From assembly GCA_021399395.1 (NCBI GenBank), contig JAAFKJ010000070.1:1-34207 (forward strand): 34,207 nt of DNA, given 5' to 3'. This document shows, one piece after another, positions 1 to 2,761 of the stretch (position 1 is the first letter of the stretch; each line of letters opens with the position of its first letter). The translations under genes and the position numbers were made by a program. The notes below the pieces were generated by a model, which was not told the DNA's origin, searched no databases, and saw only the letters and a program-made list of their open reading frames with translations. The DNA is from Candidatus Heimdallarchaeota archaeon. Lineage in GTDB: Archaea; Asgardarchaeota; Heimdallarchaeia; Heimdallarchaeales; Heimdallarchaeaceae.

Positions 1-233
1 AAAAATATTTCATCCAGTTCATCATTGTTAACATTCCTTTTATCAATCTGAATGAAATAAAAATCTCTTATTTTCCCCTCTCTATAGAGTAAATTCTCTA
101 ACCGTTCTCCAAACTTATCTTTGAACAGACTTAGAGCTTTCAAAACTGAAGAGTTCTCATCTATCTCTATTTGGACATATCTTTCTTTAGTTATTGTACG
201 CAACTGTCCAAAGCATTGTATAGAAACCTTCAT
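1..233 (-). CDS. MoaD/ThiS/SAMP-family ubiquitin-like (beta-grasp) protein, 3' end cut off by the window edge
   Basis: Not in the ORF track. Manual minus-strand translation from ATG at 233 gives MKVSIQCFGQLRTITKERYVQIEIDENSSVLKALSLFKDKFGERLENLLYREGKIRDFYFIQIDKRNVNNDELDEIF..., matching the MoaD/SAMP pattern (MKVxVxxFxxLR...). TATA-like TTAATAAA at about 253-260. The C-terminal GG is not visible. Confidence 0.8.
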   Translation of the reverse strand, partial: MKVSIQCFGQLRTITKERYVQIEIDENSSVLKALSLFKDKFGERLENLLYREGKIRDFYFIQIDKRNVNNDELDEIF

Positions 234-338
234 GGTAAAGACATCTCAAGAATTTATTAAAAGATTTTGTCGTGTAGTCATATTAAAGTGATGCTGAATA
301 CGTTCAAATTAAGGCTGCAAGTAAGATATTACAGGGGC

Positions 339-345
339 TTTTATA
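339..345 (+). promoter_or_regulatory. Probable TATA box for a leaderless tnpB transcript
   Basis: TTTTATA lies 21-27 nt upstream of ATG 366, typical archaeal spacing. Confidence 0.45.
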
Positions 346-365
346 GAGAAATATGGGTTTACAAC

Positions 366-1676
366 ATGATGACACTAGTTTGGAGAGTAGAGTGTATAGA
401 ATTACCATTTACACCAGCTCTAAGCACACTTTGTCATCAAGTAAAAAATCTCTATAATCGAGCAAATTTTCTTATTAAAAAATCGCTAGATAAGAACAAG
501 AAATTTCTCAGTTATTACGAACTCAACAGTTTACTCAAACCAGAAGAGTGTTATAGAACCCTCCCAGCTCATACAGCTCAGCATACTTTGAAATTACTAT
601 CTAGAAATTGGAAGGCTTATTTTCAAGCATTGAAGGAGTGGAAGAATCATCCTCAAAAGTTCCTAGCTCAACCCCGAGCTCCTAGATACAAGCCTAAAGA
701 TGGAGAAGGGGTAGCGATTGTAACCAACCAACAAACTAGATTGAGGAATAGCTGGGTGATTTTTCCTAAGAAAGTGGGGTTCTACTACAAAACTCGTCTA
801 ACAGCAAGGTGTAAGTTAAAGGAAGTAAGGATAGTTCCAAGAAAGGTAGGGTATACTCTAGAAATAGTGTATGAGAAAATCCTGCCCAAGCAATTTACCA
901 AGCGAACTAGAAAAGGTGCTATCGATTTAGGGACCACAAACCTCGTGGCCTTCGTAGATAACCTCGGGAATCAAGCGATTGTTGTCAAGGATCACGGTAA
1001 AGGTATCAAAAGTATCATCCAATACTATCAGAAAAGACAGAAAGAATTGAAGGCACGGTACGTGCAGCAGCAGAAAAAAATGTTAAAACATCAACAGAAG
1101 TTAGTCTATGGTCCAGCTTATTACAAGCTAAGAGAGAAGTTTCGAAAGAAACTCAAGAATGCTCTCCATCATCTCACTACTTATCTTGTTGAGCTCTTTG
1201 TTGAGCGCGATCTTCATGAGGTGATCATAGGGTATAATCCTCTTTGGAAACAGCAAGTGAACTTAGGGAAGAAGATCACCCAGATGTTCGTCTCCGTCCC
1301 TTTCCTGAAGATCATCCAACAACTGAAGTATAAAGCTGAAGAACGAGGGATACTTGTCGATACTGTTCTTGAAGACTATACTTCCAAAAGTAGTTTCTTG
1401 GACAATGAGTTTCCTCAGAAACGAGCTAAGTATGCTGGAAAACGTCATCCTCGAGGGATGTTCACTTCTAATCTTGGACACAAGATCAACTCTGATGTTA
1501 ATGCTGCCTACAATATTCTGATCAAAAGCGATCCTAATGCACTTCCTTCACGAAGTGTTGATGGGGTAGGAGGATACGTGATGTATCCCCGTAGGGTGTG
1601 TGTAGACCCACCAGGAATGACATGCACATCGACTATGAAACATGCTCAACGATGCTTGGTTAAGATACCAACATGA
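366..1676 (+). CDS. tnpB: RNA-guided endonuclease TnpB (IS200/IS605/IS607 OrfB), rearranged RuvC-II, no zinc finger
   Basis: N-terminal KNLYNRANF motif, RuvC-I AIDLGTTNL, VIIGYNPLWKQ in place of RuvC-II, alternative Glu in LEDYTSK, RuvC-III INSDVNAAYNI. Likely start is ATG 366 or 369 rather than the ORF-track TTG 267, which lies inside the left repeat. Confidence 0.93.
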   Translation: MMTLVWRVECIELPFTPALSTLCHQVKNLYNRANFLIKKSLDKNKKFLSYYELNSLLKPEECYRTLPAHTAQHTLKLLSRNWKAYFQALKEWKNHPQKFLAQPRAPRYKPKDGEGVAIVTNQQTRLRNSWVIFPKKVGFYYKTRLTARCKLKEVRIVPRKVGYTLEIVYEKILPKQFTKRTRKGAIDLGTTNLVAFVDNLGNQAIVVKDHGKGIKSIIQYYQKRQKELKARYVQQQKKMLKHQQKLVYGPAYYKLREKFRKKLKNALHHLTTYLVELFVERDLHEVIIGYNPLWKQQVNLGKKITQMFVSVPFLKIIQQLKYKAEERGILVDTVLEDYTSKSSFLDNEFPQKRAKYAGKRHPRGMFTSNLGHKINSDVNAAYNILIKSDPNALPSRSVDGVGGYVMYPRRVCVDPPGMTCTSTMKHAQRCLVKIPT

Positions 1677-1700
1677 CAAAAACTCATCATTTAAGCTCTT
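1530..1700 (+). ncRNA. Putative TnpB omegaRNA (reRNA) scaffold overlapping the tnpB 3' end, with the guide from flanking DNA
   Basis: Clustered hairpins: CACTTC/GAAGTG (1540-1557), GGATAC/GTATCC (1572-1588), CATCG/CGATG (1627-1654), TTGGT/ACCAA (1656-1671). TnpB omegaRNAs are known to overlap the ORF 3' end and the right end. Boundaries are approximate. Confidence 0.55.
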
Positions 1701-1703
1701 CCT

Positions 1704-2267
1704 TCAACCAAATTTATTCAGGAATTTTTCCTTAATCTCAATAGGTTTCCAAGGTATGTTTTCTAAGTTCTCAACGTCATCTCCAACTACAATATGTAGA
1801 ACAGCTGTTTGGTCACCGGTGAGAAGGATTTCAAAAGCTTCAGACAGTTTTGTGGGACTTTCGATTGCGTTCAGACTCCCGAAGTGTTTGATACCCATCC
1901 CTTCTAGAAGTTTAAGATAATCTAAGGATGAAGTAACTGTTTCTTGCCCACCTGTTGTGGCGTAAGATCCATTGTCAAGGATAATCAATCTAAGATTTGA
2001 AGGAAGGTTGTTTCCGATAGTTGCCAGAGAACTGAGCCCCATCAGGAAATTGCCATCTCCTGTAAAAATTATAACTTGTTTTTTTGGTTGGGCTAAAGCT
2101 AGACCCAAACCAATAGACATTGGTAAACCCATACTTCCTCGAAGATAAATCTGAGGTTGAGGTAAGAAAGTGAATACTTGTCTGCTAACGTTACCATTAG
2201 AACTCACAATTAGGACATCATCTGAAATAGAATCTTTCAAGGCAGCGACCACTTCTTCTCCTCTCAT
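1704..2267 (-). CDS. comE: TPP-dependent sulfopyruvate/phosphonopyruvate decarboxylase beta subunit
   Basis: GSMG and the TPP-binding motif GDGNFLM...IILDNGSYATTGGQ. ATGA overlap with the alpha-subunit gene. Confidence 0.8.
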   Translation of the reverse strand: MRGEEVVAALKDSISDDVLIVSSNGNVSRQVFTFLPQPQIYLRGSMGLPMSIGLGLALAQPKKQVIIFTGDGNFLMGLSSLATIGNNLPSNLRLIILDNGSYATTGGQETVTSSLDYLKLLEGMGIKHFGSLNAIESPTKLSEAFEILLTGDQTAVLHIVVGDDVENLENIPWKPIEIKEKFLNKFG

Positions 2268-2761
2268 TCGCTCAAAACCCCCTTTTCAACAAGAATGCAG
2301 ACAACCTCATTATTCGTTATCATTTCTTCAATAGCTCGATTAATAGTATCTTGCCAATCTTGCTCATACAATATCTCATAAGGGACATTATAGGCGTTCA
2401 AAATTTCTTCAGTAACATCACCCATTATAGAATGCTCAGGGAAGTCAGTATCAGGTTCCAATCCTCTATAGCTAACAAAGAGCAGAAGAGGGATTTGGTA
2501 AAGCTGAGCTAAAGAAGTAAGAGCATCACCAATGGTAGCTAAACCAGAATTTTGCATGATAACAAAAGACTGTTTTCCTCCAAGATAATAACCACAAGAA
2601 ATACCCACTGCTTCATCTTCACGAGTAGCAGAAACATAGTTGATTTTATCACTCTTTTCAAGCTCAATGAATAACTCCTTGAAATATGAACATGGAACTC
2701 CAGAAGCAAGTGTGAAACCATGACCATGCAGATAAGAAATAAGTTCAGCTGAATCTATCAA
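2264..2761 (-). CDS. comD: TPP-dependent sulfopyruvate/phosphonopyruvate decarboxylase alpha subunit
   Basis: GVPCS, TREDEAVG and MQNSGL motifs. TTG start preceded by AGGT. Substrate is uncertain. Confidence 0.8.
   Translation of the reverse strand: MIDSAELISYLHGHGFTLASGVPCSYFKELFIELEKSDKINYVSATREDEAVGISCGYYLGGKQSFVIMQNSGLATIGDALTSLAQLYQIPLLLFVSYRGLEPDTDFPEHSIMGDVTEEILNAYNVPYEILYEQDWQDTINRAIEEMITNNEVVCILVEKGVLSE

What the first reader, a model, noticed from the sequence alone, without database searches (positions are those of the whole stretch)
262..1685. Solo tnpB bounded by terminal inverted repeats (TGTC...GACA), atypical for IS200/IS605
Seen: 265-286 and the reverse complement of 1660-1681 match at 17/22, and weaker gapped similarity continues about 25 nt inward. 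The tnpB stop (1674-1676) lies inside the right repeat. There is no transposase gene and no clear target-site duplication. Known: IS200/IS605 ends are subterminal hairpins, not TIRs, whereas TIRs and TGT...ACA ends typify DDE elements and some Fanzor-carrying elements. Inference: a non-autonomous TnpB element moved in trans by a non-Y1 enzyme (DDE transposase or serine recombinase). Caveat: a hairpin at 1652-1674 would also fit an ordinary IS605-type right end.
Basis: partly seen in the sequence, partly recalled or inferred. Interest (0 to 1): 0.78.

Follow-up and report, generated by a model that had tools for sequence, protein, structure and literature searches.

The report
Solo TnpB element with inverted ends
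This is a transposase-less TnpB guide-RNA mobile element in a Heimdall (Asgard) archaeon whose two ends really are inverted copies of each other, an unusual layout that points to a double-strand recombinase, not the usual single-strand Y1 enzyme, as its still unidentified mover.

Summary
The 17/22 inverted repeat (265-286 vs 1660-1681) is real: 4 of 5000 shuffles reach it, and it is conserved across the family. But it does not bound the element. Empty sites in two sister species put the element at window 258-1690 (1433 bp), inserted 3' of TTAT with no duplication beyond a shared AT. A second copy has the same kind of empty site. The repeat is subterminal. Counted from the shared AT, both ends have the same register, AT-8 nt-core, in 30 of 41 elements. 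Joined, the ends would form a dyad-symmetric site around TC.AT.GA. Repeat cores change together at both ends between subfamilies. Only the right end has a covarying hairpin, which sits in an omega-RNA-like scaffold. Y1 TnpA was found in 0 of 25 genus genomes. No DDE, IS110 or Cas1 family was found in the own genome; only serine recombinases were, and their IS607 copies have unrelated ends. Best reading: a non-autonomous IS1341-type TnpB element with serine-recombinase-style ends and an AT overlap dinucleotide, mover unidentified.

The parts
254..257 (+). TTAT target site in the flank, the predicted TAM of the TnpB. It is not part of the element.
   Evidence: It is present in the empty sites of G021 and G001. 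At 40 true left ends the motif is TTAT in 34, CTAT in 4, and other in 2 (my count after correcting the register).
258..1690 (+). The whole element, 1433 bp: a non-autonomous TnpB/omega-RNA transposon. It could equally be written 256-1688, because AT is shared.
   Evidence: Empty sites: G021:C331 and G001:C9 read ...TTAT|(T/A)TAAGC.... Family homology stops at these points.
258..264 (+). Left-end spacer between the insertion point and the inverted repeat.
   Evidence: It is moderately conserved (GAAWRAAW in the family; TAAAAGA here).
265..286 (+). Left inverted repeat. It holds two tandem 8-nt units (267-274 and 275-282).
   Evidence: 17 of 22. Conserved in 41 distinct left ends. It changes together with the right repeat between subfamilies.
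339..346 (+). TTTTATAG, a TATA-box-like motif about 23 nt upstream of the tnpB ATG. Inferred to be an archaeal promoter.
   Evidence: It lies in a conserved block of all left ends aligned. The promoter function is an inference and was not tested.
366..1676 (+). tnpB: 436 codons plus stop. The start is set by comparison with paralogues.
   Evidence: Pfam OrfB_IS605 at 34.6 bits (cut-off 30.5) and Cas12f1-like TNB at 42.5 bits (cut-off 26.3). Alignment A2. The PDB profile search matches only Cas12f chains, E about 1.4e-4, over residues 310-388.
1526..1690 (+). Omega-RNA-like scaffold overlapping the 3' end of tnpB. Helices: 1531-1534/1564-1567, 1539-1545/1552-1558, 1572-1577/1583-1588, 1596-1603/1620-1627, 1652-1660/1667-1674.
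   Evidence: Miniature derivatives keep this block. On 11 copies, 88.7% of cells are paired against 81.9% shuffled (0 of 500). Covariation score is 0.258 against 0.136 (0 of 500), and slid controls reach 0.10 at most.
1652..1674 (+). Right-end hairpin, the last helix of the scaffold. Its loop and 3' arm are part of the right inverted repeat.
   Evidence: 3 of 8 pairs change on both sides. One pair is U.G in 7 of 11 copies, which fits RNA better than DNA. Stem sequences differ between subfamilies.
1660..1681 (+). Right inverted repeat.
1682..1690 (+). Right-end spacer and the terminal TCAT (1687-1690).
   Evidence: TCAT is invariant in 56 of 56 right ends and 45 of 45. Both search patterns partly force this result. 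Flanks lose all conservation after 1690.
1691..1706 (+). Right flank, predicted to template the guide of the omega RNA. The 16-nt length is assumed.
   Evidence: Inferred from the position directly 3' of the scaffold, by analogy with TnpB systems (passages of 10.1101/2023.11.20.567912). Not tested.

Best explanation
Window 258-1690 is a non-autonomous, IS1341-type TnpB/omega-RNA element of a Heimdallarchaeota genome.

Shown:
- It sits 3' of a TTAT in the flank and ends in TCAT. It made no duplication other than the shared AT.
- It carries an intact tnpB and a covarying scaffold at its 3' end.
- Each end holds two tandem 8-nt units, in mirror orientation, at the same distance from the shared AT.

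Inferred:
- If the ends were joined in an excised circle, they would form one crossover site. This site would have two inverted half-sites around an AT overlap dinucleotide, with a TC.AT.GA centre.
- Excision would be scarless and would restore TTAT plus the guide-matching flank. TnpB could then cut that site to restore the element from a sister copy.

The enzyme acts in trans and is not identified. The only recombinase class found in this genome is serine recombinase: IS607 TnpA and two conserved small resolvase-like proteins.
For: 1. Boundaries, target and absence of a conventional duplication:
- Empty sites of this copy occur in G021 and G001.
- The C131 paralogue has an empty site in G021.
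- Left and right ends were profiled.

2. Mirror symmetry:
- The best left/right match has offsets of 7 and 9 nt. These become 9 and 9 when the flank AT is counted.
- 30 of 41 elements with both ends align in this AT-to-AT register.
- In subfamily L175 the repeat is 26 of 27 and reaches the very end.

3. The target resembles the joined ends. In the right flank, position +1 is G in 18 and A in 16 of 45; position +2 is A in 32 of 45, p = 1.7e-7. The left end starts with G/A then A.

4. The cores of the two ends change together between subfamilies. Best ungapped identity is 23.1 of 36 within elements and 21.0 of 36 between elements, with 0 of 2000 permutations reaching the observed value.

5. Only the right end has a conserved hairpin, and that hairpin belongs to the RNA scaffold.

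6. Candidate enzymes:
- Y1_Tnp: 0 of 25 genus genomes.
- In the own genome: Resolvase 4 hits. No Y1, DDE_3, DDE_Tnp_1, Cas1, IS110 DEDD or rve.

7. The nearest TnpA-linked relative of this TnpB is IS607-type, with profile E = 1.6e-69. The Y1-linked TnpB of the same taxonomic family scores only E = 2.9e-15.

8. Literature, passages read:
- IS607 ends have imperfect inverted repeats near the ends and short direct repeats. They make no duplication, and element and target share a dinucleotide (PMC6188088).
- CboIStron has TAM TGGG and a right end TCGG, which share GG (10.1101/2023.11.20.567912).
Against: - No serine transposase was found with these ends.
- The IS607-type copies of the genus start with an unrelated, asymmetric left end.
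- None of the 30 TnpA loci fetched carries the repeat core or this TnpB.
- Intact or fragmentary IS607 TnpA was matched in only 19 of 25 genus genomes.
- TTAT/TCAT-type cleavage sites are typical of Y1-mobilised IS200/IS605 elements (PMC4810608).
- Altae-Tran et al. describe serine-associated TnpB ends as asymmetric and inverted terminal repeats as a DDE trait (PMC10691335).
- Several repeat variants coexist in one genome without cognate enzymes. One trans-acting protein fits that poorly, unless it reads only the shared TTGTC.
- A 2-bp AT duplication by a DDE enzyme gives the same junction sequences and cannot be excluded from sequence.
- Copies within the genome are only 65-77% identical, so recent activity is not shown.
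Confidence: 0.45

Rival explanations
1. This is an ordinary IS200/IS605-type non-autonomous element moved by a Y1 TnpA supplied in trans. The TnpA would come from an unassembled, plasmid or viral copy, or would have been lost since. The inverted repeat would be a by-product of the right-end hairpin, with a related but degenerate left-end structure.
For: - Insertion 3' of a 4-nt target with no duplication.
- TTAT/TCAT-type sites are described for TnpB-only IS605B elements (PMC4810608, passages).
- The right end has a covarying hairpin 16 nt from the cleavage point.
- Y1 exists in sister genera that also carry this TnpB family, G041 and G042.
- The genomes are 72-92% complete MAGs.
Against: - PF01797 was found in 0 of 25 genus genomes, while the control genomes ring.
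- The Y1 elements of the order have unrelated ends, and none of the 12 loci carries the core motif.
- No conserved left-end hairpin: alifold gives -3.4 for the left end against -20.9 for the right end, and subfamilies were inspected.
- A Y1 mechanism does not predict equal spacing of both repeats from AT, repeats that reach the termini in some subfamilies, or a preference on the 3' side of the target.
Confidence: 0.2
2. This is a classical TIR transposon moved by a DDE-type cut-and-paste enzyme in trans, with a 2-bp AT target-site duplication. In that case the element proper is 258-1688, flanked by AT on both sides.
For: - AT is present on both sides and once in the empty sites.
- Imperfect inverted repeats of about 25-36 bp reach the ends in several subfamilies.
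- The target TTAT-R-A is roughly palindromic.
- DDE-associated TnpBs have inverted terminal repeats (PMC10691335).
- Fanzor element SPu-1 has 33-bp TIRs and a TA duplication (PMC3627910).
Against: - DDE_3, DDE_Tnp_1 and rve were not found in the own genome (genome 81.8% complete).
- No other gene in the own genome is flanked by these repeats.
- The right AT is invariant, but 2 of 40 left flanks differ from AT with no matching change at the right end.
- The first base of the left end is G in only about half of the copies, while the right TC is invariant. Such asymmetry is unusual for DDE termini.
- No DDE family with an AT duplication is known to me (recalled).
Confidence: 0.1
3. The repeat does not serve a transposase. 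What is selected would be complementarity between the left end and the omega-RNA 3' scaffold. This could act as a single-strand panhandle that brings the two cleavage sites together, or as an RNA/DNA pairing that regulates the element. Alternatively the copies are immobile relics.
For: - The cores of the two ends change together between subfamilies although no element encodes a protein that could co-evolve with them, other than TnpB and its RNA.
- The right repeat is part of the covarying scaffold hairpin.
- Paralogues are only 65-77% identical.
Against: - The element's own promoter-like motif lies downstream of the left repeat, so the left repeat is probably not in its own transcript (inference).
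- Insertions are polymorphic between species at two loci, so the family has moved.
- No known TnpB function uses the left end (recalled).
Confidence: 0.15

Closest known systems
IS1341 group / 'IS605B' TnpB-only elements of the IS200/IS605 superfamily
   Same: A single tnpB gene of about 1.4 kb. Insertion 3' of a 4-nt motif without duplication. An omega-RNA-like 3' end. Many diverged copies and miniature derivatives (PMC4810608 and PMC3119063, passages).
   Different: Those elements are described as lacking inverted repeats and as having hairpins at both ends for a Y1 enzyme. Here the left end has no conserved hairpin, the ends are mirror images, and no Y1 gene was found in 25 genus genomes.
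IS607 family (serine transposase TnpA plus TnpB), e.g. IS607, IS1535, CboIStron
   Same: No duplication. An overlap dinucleotide shared by the target and the element end. Imperfect inverted repeats near the ends. Short directly repeated motifs. The TAM and the right end differ at position -3 only: TGGG/TCGG there, TTAT/TCAT here (PMC6188088, PMC4058570 and 10.1101/2023.11.20.567912, passages).
   Different: The overlap is AT, not GG. No tnpA in the element. The ends are far more symmetric than those of the IS607 copies in the same genome, whose ends are unrelated.
DDE-associated TnpB and Fanzor elements with terminal inverted repeats (IS630-linked TnpB; Fanzor1 SPu-1)
   Same: A solo RNA-guided nuclease gene between inverted repeats of about 30 bp, with a 2-bp repeat at the junctions (PMC10691335; PMC3627910).
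   Different: Those duplicate TA and have DDE partners. Here the dinucleotide is AT, the right AT behaves as part of the element, a 4-nt TTAT motif is kept on one side only, and no DDE gene was found.
Crossover sites of resolvase/invertase-type and large serine recombinases (including Tn4451 TnpX; recalled, no call)
   Same: Two inverted half-sites around a central dinucleotide. The circle junction recombines with targets that resemble it.
   Different: No such enzyme has been tied to this element. The targets share only about 6 bp.

Membership tests
TnpB / OMEGA nuclease | OrfB_IS605 (RuvC) and TNB domains above the curated cut-offs | tested here: met
   PF01385 at 34.6 bits against cut-off 30.5. 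PF07282 at 42.5 bits against cut-off 26.3.
TnpB / OMEGA nuclease | Intact RuvC D-E-D triad and a C4 zinc ribbon | tested here: inconclusive
   AIDLG and NADVNAAYNI motifs are invariant in A2. The second aligns with the RuvC-III motif of Cas12f chains. The four zinc-ribbon Cys are replaced. The AF2 model was too poor to check the fold (pLDDT 43). Motif names are recalled.
TnpB / OMEGA nuclease | Structured guide-RNA scaffold at the 3' end, abutting the flank | tested here: met
   33 pairs on 11 copies. Covariation is 0.258 against 0.136 shuffled (0 of 500), and slid controls reach 0.10 at most. Expression was not tested. Rfam has no match.
IS200/IS605 (Y1-mobilised, including the IS1341 group) | Insertion 3' of a specific 4-5 nt site without target duplication | tested here: met
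   Empty sites for two copies. TTAT at 34 of 40 left ends.
IS200/IS605 (Y1-mobilised, including the IS1341 group) | Subterminal imperfect hairpins at both ends | tested here: not met
   The right end has a covarying hairpin. The left end has no conserved hairpin in any subfamily inspected.
IS200/IS605 (Y1-mobilised, including the IS1341 group) | Y1 (HUH) TnpA in the element, or in the genome with matching ends | tested here: not met
   0 of 25 genus genomes have PF01797. 7 of 47 genomes in the order have it, but with unrelated ends. The MAGs are 72-92% complete.
IS607 family | No duplication; an overlap dinucleotide shared by the element end and the target | tested here: met
   AT at the right end in 45 of 45 copies and at 38 of 40 left flanks. 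It occurs once in the empty sites. A 2-bp duplication gives the same pattern.
IS607 family | Imperfect inverted repeat near the ends plus short direct repeats | tested here: met
   Two tandem 8-nt units at each end, in mirror orientation. The feature is as described in PMC6188088.
IS607 family | MerR-HTH serine transposase in the element, or in trans with the same ends | tested here: not met
   None in the element. IS607 TnpA is present in the genome, but its elements have unrelated ends. 0 of 30 TnpA loci carry the core.
DDE TIR transposon | Terminal inverted repeats | tested here: inconclusive
   Subterminal in this copy. They reach the end in some subfamilies, e.g. 26 of 27 in L175.
DDE TIR transposon | Target-site duplication and a DDE transposase with the same repeats | tested here: inconclusive
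   A 2-bp AT duplication cannot be told from an overlap dinucleotide. DDE_3, DDE_Tnp_1 and rve were not found in the own genome.

The most novel reading that the evidence does not exclude
These Heimdallarchaeial TnpB elements may be a distinct transposon class. Their ends would form a dyad-symmetric AT crossover site, and they would be moved by a chromosomal serine recombinase that is not transposon-borne and is vertically inherited. The candidates are the syntenic SR-1 or its paralogue SR-2, present in 29 of 31 genomes of the taxonomic family. In other words, a host-encoded recombinase would be shared by many guide-RNA elements. Alternatively, the mover recognises left/right complementarity itself rather than a fixed motif. 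That would explain why both ends change together in elements that encode no transposase.
Probability: 0.12. Interest if true: 0.85.

Novelty: new variant of a known kind. Interest (0 to 1): 0.55.

Why it matters
How TnpB-only (IS1341-type) elements move in genomes that lack a TnpA is an old open question. It is raised for haloarchaea in PMC3119063 and in the co-occurrence table of PMC4810608.

This family offers a concrete, testable case:
- exact boundaries;
- a TTAT motif that should be the TAM;
- mirror-image ends around an AT;
- end sequences that change together;
- a short list of candidate serine recombinases.

The host belongs to the Asgard archaea, and eukaryotic Fanzor elements also sit between inverted repeats. 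A prokaryotic TnpB lineage with such ends is therefore relevant to how these nucleases changed carriers.

The TnpB is compact (436 aa) and lacks the zinc-ribbon cysteines, which may interest tool developers.

Tried and rejected
Steps that led nowhere:
- Rfam had no match in window 1-2400 at E up to 1.
- phmmer of the TnpB against PDB sequences found nothing at E up to 0.001. The A2 profile gave only weak Cas12f matches.
- The AlphaFold2 model from the 8-row alignment was poor (pLDDT 43.1). I ran no fold search.
- Viral contigs held no relative of the TnpB. The 5 hits to a 17-base end motif there were not followed, because about that many are expected by chance (my estimate).
- Cas1 occurs in 12 of 31 genomes of the taxonomic family, but none of the 12 loci fetched holds this TnpB or the end motif. 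I rejected the Asgard Cas1 idea taken from PMC10691335.
- The Y1 loci of the order (12 loci) and the IS607 TnpA loci (30 loci) lack the core motif.
- A loose regex for paired ends enclosing other genes gave only noise beside the 1.4-kb peak. A tighter one found only TnpB elements, miniature elements and two orphan left ends.
- One abutted right-left junction pattern hit was a chance match in a flank.
- In family f5 (genus g14), TnpB relatives at 34-45% identity show no comparable repeat by the same method, in 21 elements examined.
- I rejected a TA duplication (IS630/mariner type). Position +1 of the right flank is A in only 16 of 45 copies, and the filled and empty sites of this copy do not fit it.
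- Sequencing runs: no RNA holder is listed.
- Laid contigs of X3, X4 and X5 bridge the filled junctions. No 257-to-1691 joint and no circle junction were seen. Contigs drop rare variants, so this says nothing about excision. One 346-to-1643 joint in X6 is a miniature paralogue.
- Co-occurrence of the small serine recombinases with the element was not tested beyond the taxonomic family. Related genomes are not independent, so I did not pursue it.
- Supplements of the papers were closed. The TnpB branch tables and end alignments of PMC10691335 may already list this Asgard branch and its ends.
- The literature search on Heimdallarchaeota, TnpB and transposon listed 2 papers, neither on this subject by title or abstract.
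Full report
**What is there**

The window is contig C161 of a 2.8-Mb, 34% G+C assembly that is 81.8% complete. Relatives fetched by the TnpB alignment are titled Candidatus Heimdallarchaeota in 78 of 80 loci.

The ORF 267-1676 matches Pfam OrfB_IS605 and Cas12f1-like TNB above their cut-offs. Comparison with paralogues puts the start at ATG 366, giving 436 aa. The AIDLG and NADVNAAYNI motifs are invariant in the alignment. The four zinc-ribbon cysteines seen in Cas12f chains are replaced. A conserved TTTTATAG lies about 23 nt upstream of the ATG. I read it as an archaeal promoter, by inference only.

**The observation**

- 265-286 and the reverse complement of 1660-1681 agree at 17 of 22 positions.
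- This is the best 22-mer match between the first and last 40 nt of the element.
- 4 of 5000 dinucleotide shuffles and 7 of 5000 genomic pairs at the same spacing reach 17.
- The tnpB stop lies inside the right repeat.

So the repeat is real. It is also conserved: a pattern built on the left repeat finds both the left ends and the reverse-complemented right ends of paralogues.

**Boundaries**

The own genome holds about 40 related pieces. Alignments of 18 left and 23 right ends show two things:
- a conserved TTAT followed by the element;
- a right end ...ACATGACAAAAAC(A/T)CATCAT, after which the flanks diverge.

Two sister species have the same locus without the element:
- G021:C331 matches window 12-257 and 1689-2680 back to back.
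- G001:C9 does likewise.

Their sequences read ...TTAT directly followed by the right flank. The element is therefore 258-1690 (1433 bp). It is inserted 3' of TTAT with no duplication, except that the flank (TTAT) and the element end (TCAT) share AT.

A second copy (C131) has the same kind of empty site in G021...TTAT|TCATCAAC....

Across 40 true left ends the flank motif is TTAT in 34, CTAT in 4 and other in 2. The right end is TCAT in all right ends collected, 56 and 45 copies, although the search patterns partly force this.

The repeat thus lies 7 and 9 nt inside the ends.

**Anatomy of the ends**

Each end holds two tandem 8-nt units beginning TTGTC, read inward.

- **Equal register.** If the AT of the flank is counted, both repeats start the same distance from AT. 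The best ungapped left/right alignment falls in this AT-to-AT register in 30 of 41 elements with both ends found.
- **Dyad symmetry.** The joined ends would read core-8 nt-AT-8 nt-core, with a palindromic TC.AT.GA centre.
- **Target.** The target looks like that centre. After TCAT the flank has G in 18 and A in 16 of 45 at +1, and A in 32 of 45 at +2 (p = 1.7e-7). The left end itself begins G/A then A.
- **Concerted change.** Between subfamilies, including the sister genus g10, the cores differ but stay alike at the two ends of each element. Five core variants were seen. In one subfamily (L175) the repeat is 26 of 27 and reaches the very end. Within-element identity is 23.1 of 36 against 21.0 of 36 between elements, and 0 of 2000 permutations reach the observed value.

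**The right end is also RNA**

The last 165 nt are kept by miniature derivatives. They fold into five helices on 11 copies:
- 88.7% of cells are paired against 81.9% shuffled (0 of 500).
- The covariation score is 0.258 against 0.136 (0 of 500). Slid controls reach 0.10 at most.

It has three pairs with changes on both sides and a U.G pair in 7 of 11 copies, which fits an RNA on the sense strand. Its loop and 3' arm are the right repeat.

The left end has no conserved hairpin. What the two ends share is therefore a duplex motif in mirror orientation, not a pair of hairpins.

**Who moves it**

All related loci are solo. The left-end motif was found in 47 of 76 rows and always has a copy 62-100 nt upstream of tnpB. 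The other 29 rows have diverged motifs.

| Enzyme family | Where sought | Result |
|---|---|---|
| Y1_Tnp (PF01797) | own genome | 0 hits |
| Y1_Tnp (PF01797) | 25 genus genomes | 0 of 25 |
| Y1_Tnp (PF01797) | order | 7 of 47, always with unrelated ends |
| DDE_3, DDE_Tnp_1, rve, IS110 DEDD, Cas1 | own genome | none found |
| Resolvase | own genome | 4 hits |

The four Resolvase hits are of two kinds.
- Two are IS607-type TnpA (MerR HTH plus catalytic domain) followed by a long TnpB-like ORF. Their elements (for example C28:23610-26339) have asymmetric, unrelated ends. None of the 30 TnpA loci of the genus has the core or this TnpB.
- Two are small resolvase-like proteins. They are conserved in 29 of 31 genomes of the taxonomic family. 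One sits in a syntenic block in 14 of 15 genus loci.

The nearest TnpA-linked relative of the TnpB is IS607-type (G065, profile E = 1.6e-69, 34.5% identity). The Y1-linked TnpB of G046 scores only 2.9e-15.

**Mechanism**

Shown:
- the exact ends;
- the TTAT target;
- the shared AT;
- the mirror ends with tandem units;
- the concerted change of the ends;
- the RNA scaffold.

Inferred: the ends, joined in a circle, make a crossover site of two inverted half-sites around an AT overlap. This site recombines with TTAT-R-A targets, as proposed and shown for IS607-family serine transposases with GG (passages of PMC4058570, PMC6188088 and 10.1101/2023.11.20.567912). In CboIStron the TAM is TGGG and the right end TCGG. 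Here they are TTAT and TCAT, with the same logic: the overlap is shared, and position -3 protects the element from its own nuclease.

Scarless excision would recreate TTAT plus the guide-matching flank for TnpB to cut.

I give this reading 0.45. The rivals are:
- Y1 in trans, 0.2;
- a DDE enzyme with an AT duplication, 0.1;
- a repeat that serves nucleic-acid pairing, or relic copies, 0.15.

The main weakness is that no enzyme is tied to these ends. Altae-Tran et al. also describe serine-associated ends as asymmetric.

**Comparison and novelty**

The element works like an IS1341/IS607 hybrid. It fails the hairpin and Y1 tests for IS200/IS605 membership. It lacks the transposase needed for IS607 membership.

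I file it as a new variant of a known kind. It is distributed in 44 of 83 genomes of the class at E up to 1e-60, with up to at least 21 scored matches per genome.

I found no paper on it. The closed supplements of PMC10691335 may nevertheless cover its branch.

**Limits**

- All genomes but a few are incomplete MAGs.
- Related genomes are not independent.
- Activity today is not shown. Paralogues are 65-77% identical, and the laid contigs show only the filled allele.

Noticed in passing
G000:C86:3969-4697 (L033 1489-2217) and G000:C20:20092-20790: Two small serine recombinases (243 and about 251 aa; Pfam Resolvase only) are conserved in 29 of 31 genomes of the taxonomic family. One sits in a syntenic block, GTPase-orf122-orf149-SR, in 14 of 15 genus loci, and at 85-92% identity it is the best conserved gene of the block. 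They look like host genes of unknown role. They are a candidate trans-acting enzyme for the element.
   Followed up: partly
G000:C28:23610-26339; also C195:908-3626 and C132:63346-65739: IS607-type elements. They hold a MerR-HTH serine transposase (196-199 aa) followed by a TnpB-like ORF of more than 476 aa that has no Pfam hit. Their ends are asymmetric. Solo right-end pieces of about 87 bp, about 90% identical, lie on C5, C152, C18 and C163.
   Followed up: partly
G000:C171:20443-20827; C136:53846-54238; C23:10429-10827; C197:6177-6643; C132:12288-12694: Miniature derivatives of the family, about 385-470 bp. They keep about 90 nt of the left end and 125-325 nt of the right end (the RNA scaffold) and have no tnpB.
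   Followed up: partly
window 366-1673 (TnpB residues about 340-375): The four cysteines of the TnpB/Cas12f zinc ribbon are replaced (YTSKSSFLD... in place of a C-x-x-C pattern) in all 8 aligned family members.
   Followed up: partly
window 233-257 and 1691-1706: The element sits in what would be a spacer of about 38 nt between two minus-strand ORFs, 1704-2267 and 3-233. The neighbouring minus-strand ORFs 1704-2267 and 2264-2761 overlap by 4 nt.
   Followed up: no
The genome search rows (e.g. G013:C19, G011:C72): Many family copies show one in-frame TGA or TAG near the C-terminus when read against the profile. The last 20 or so codons overlap the conserved RNA scaffold, so the DNA stays alignable past an earlier stop. 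I take these to be variable ORF ends, not necessarily broken genes.
   Followed up: no
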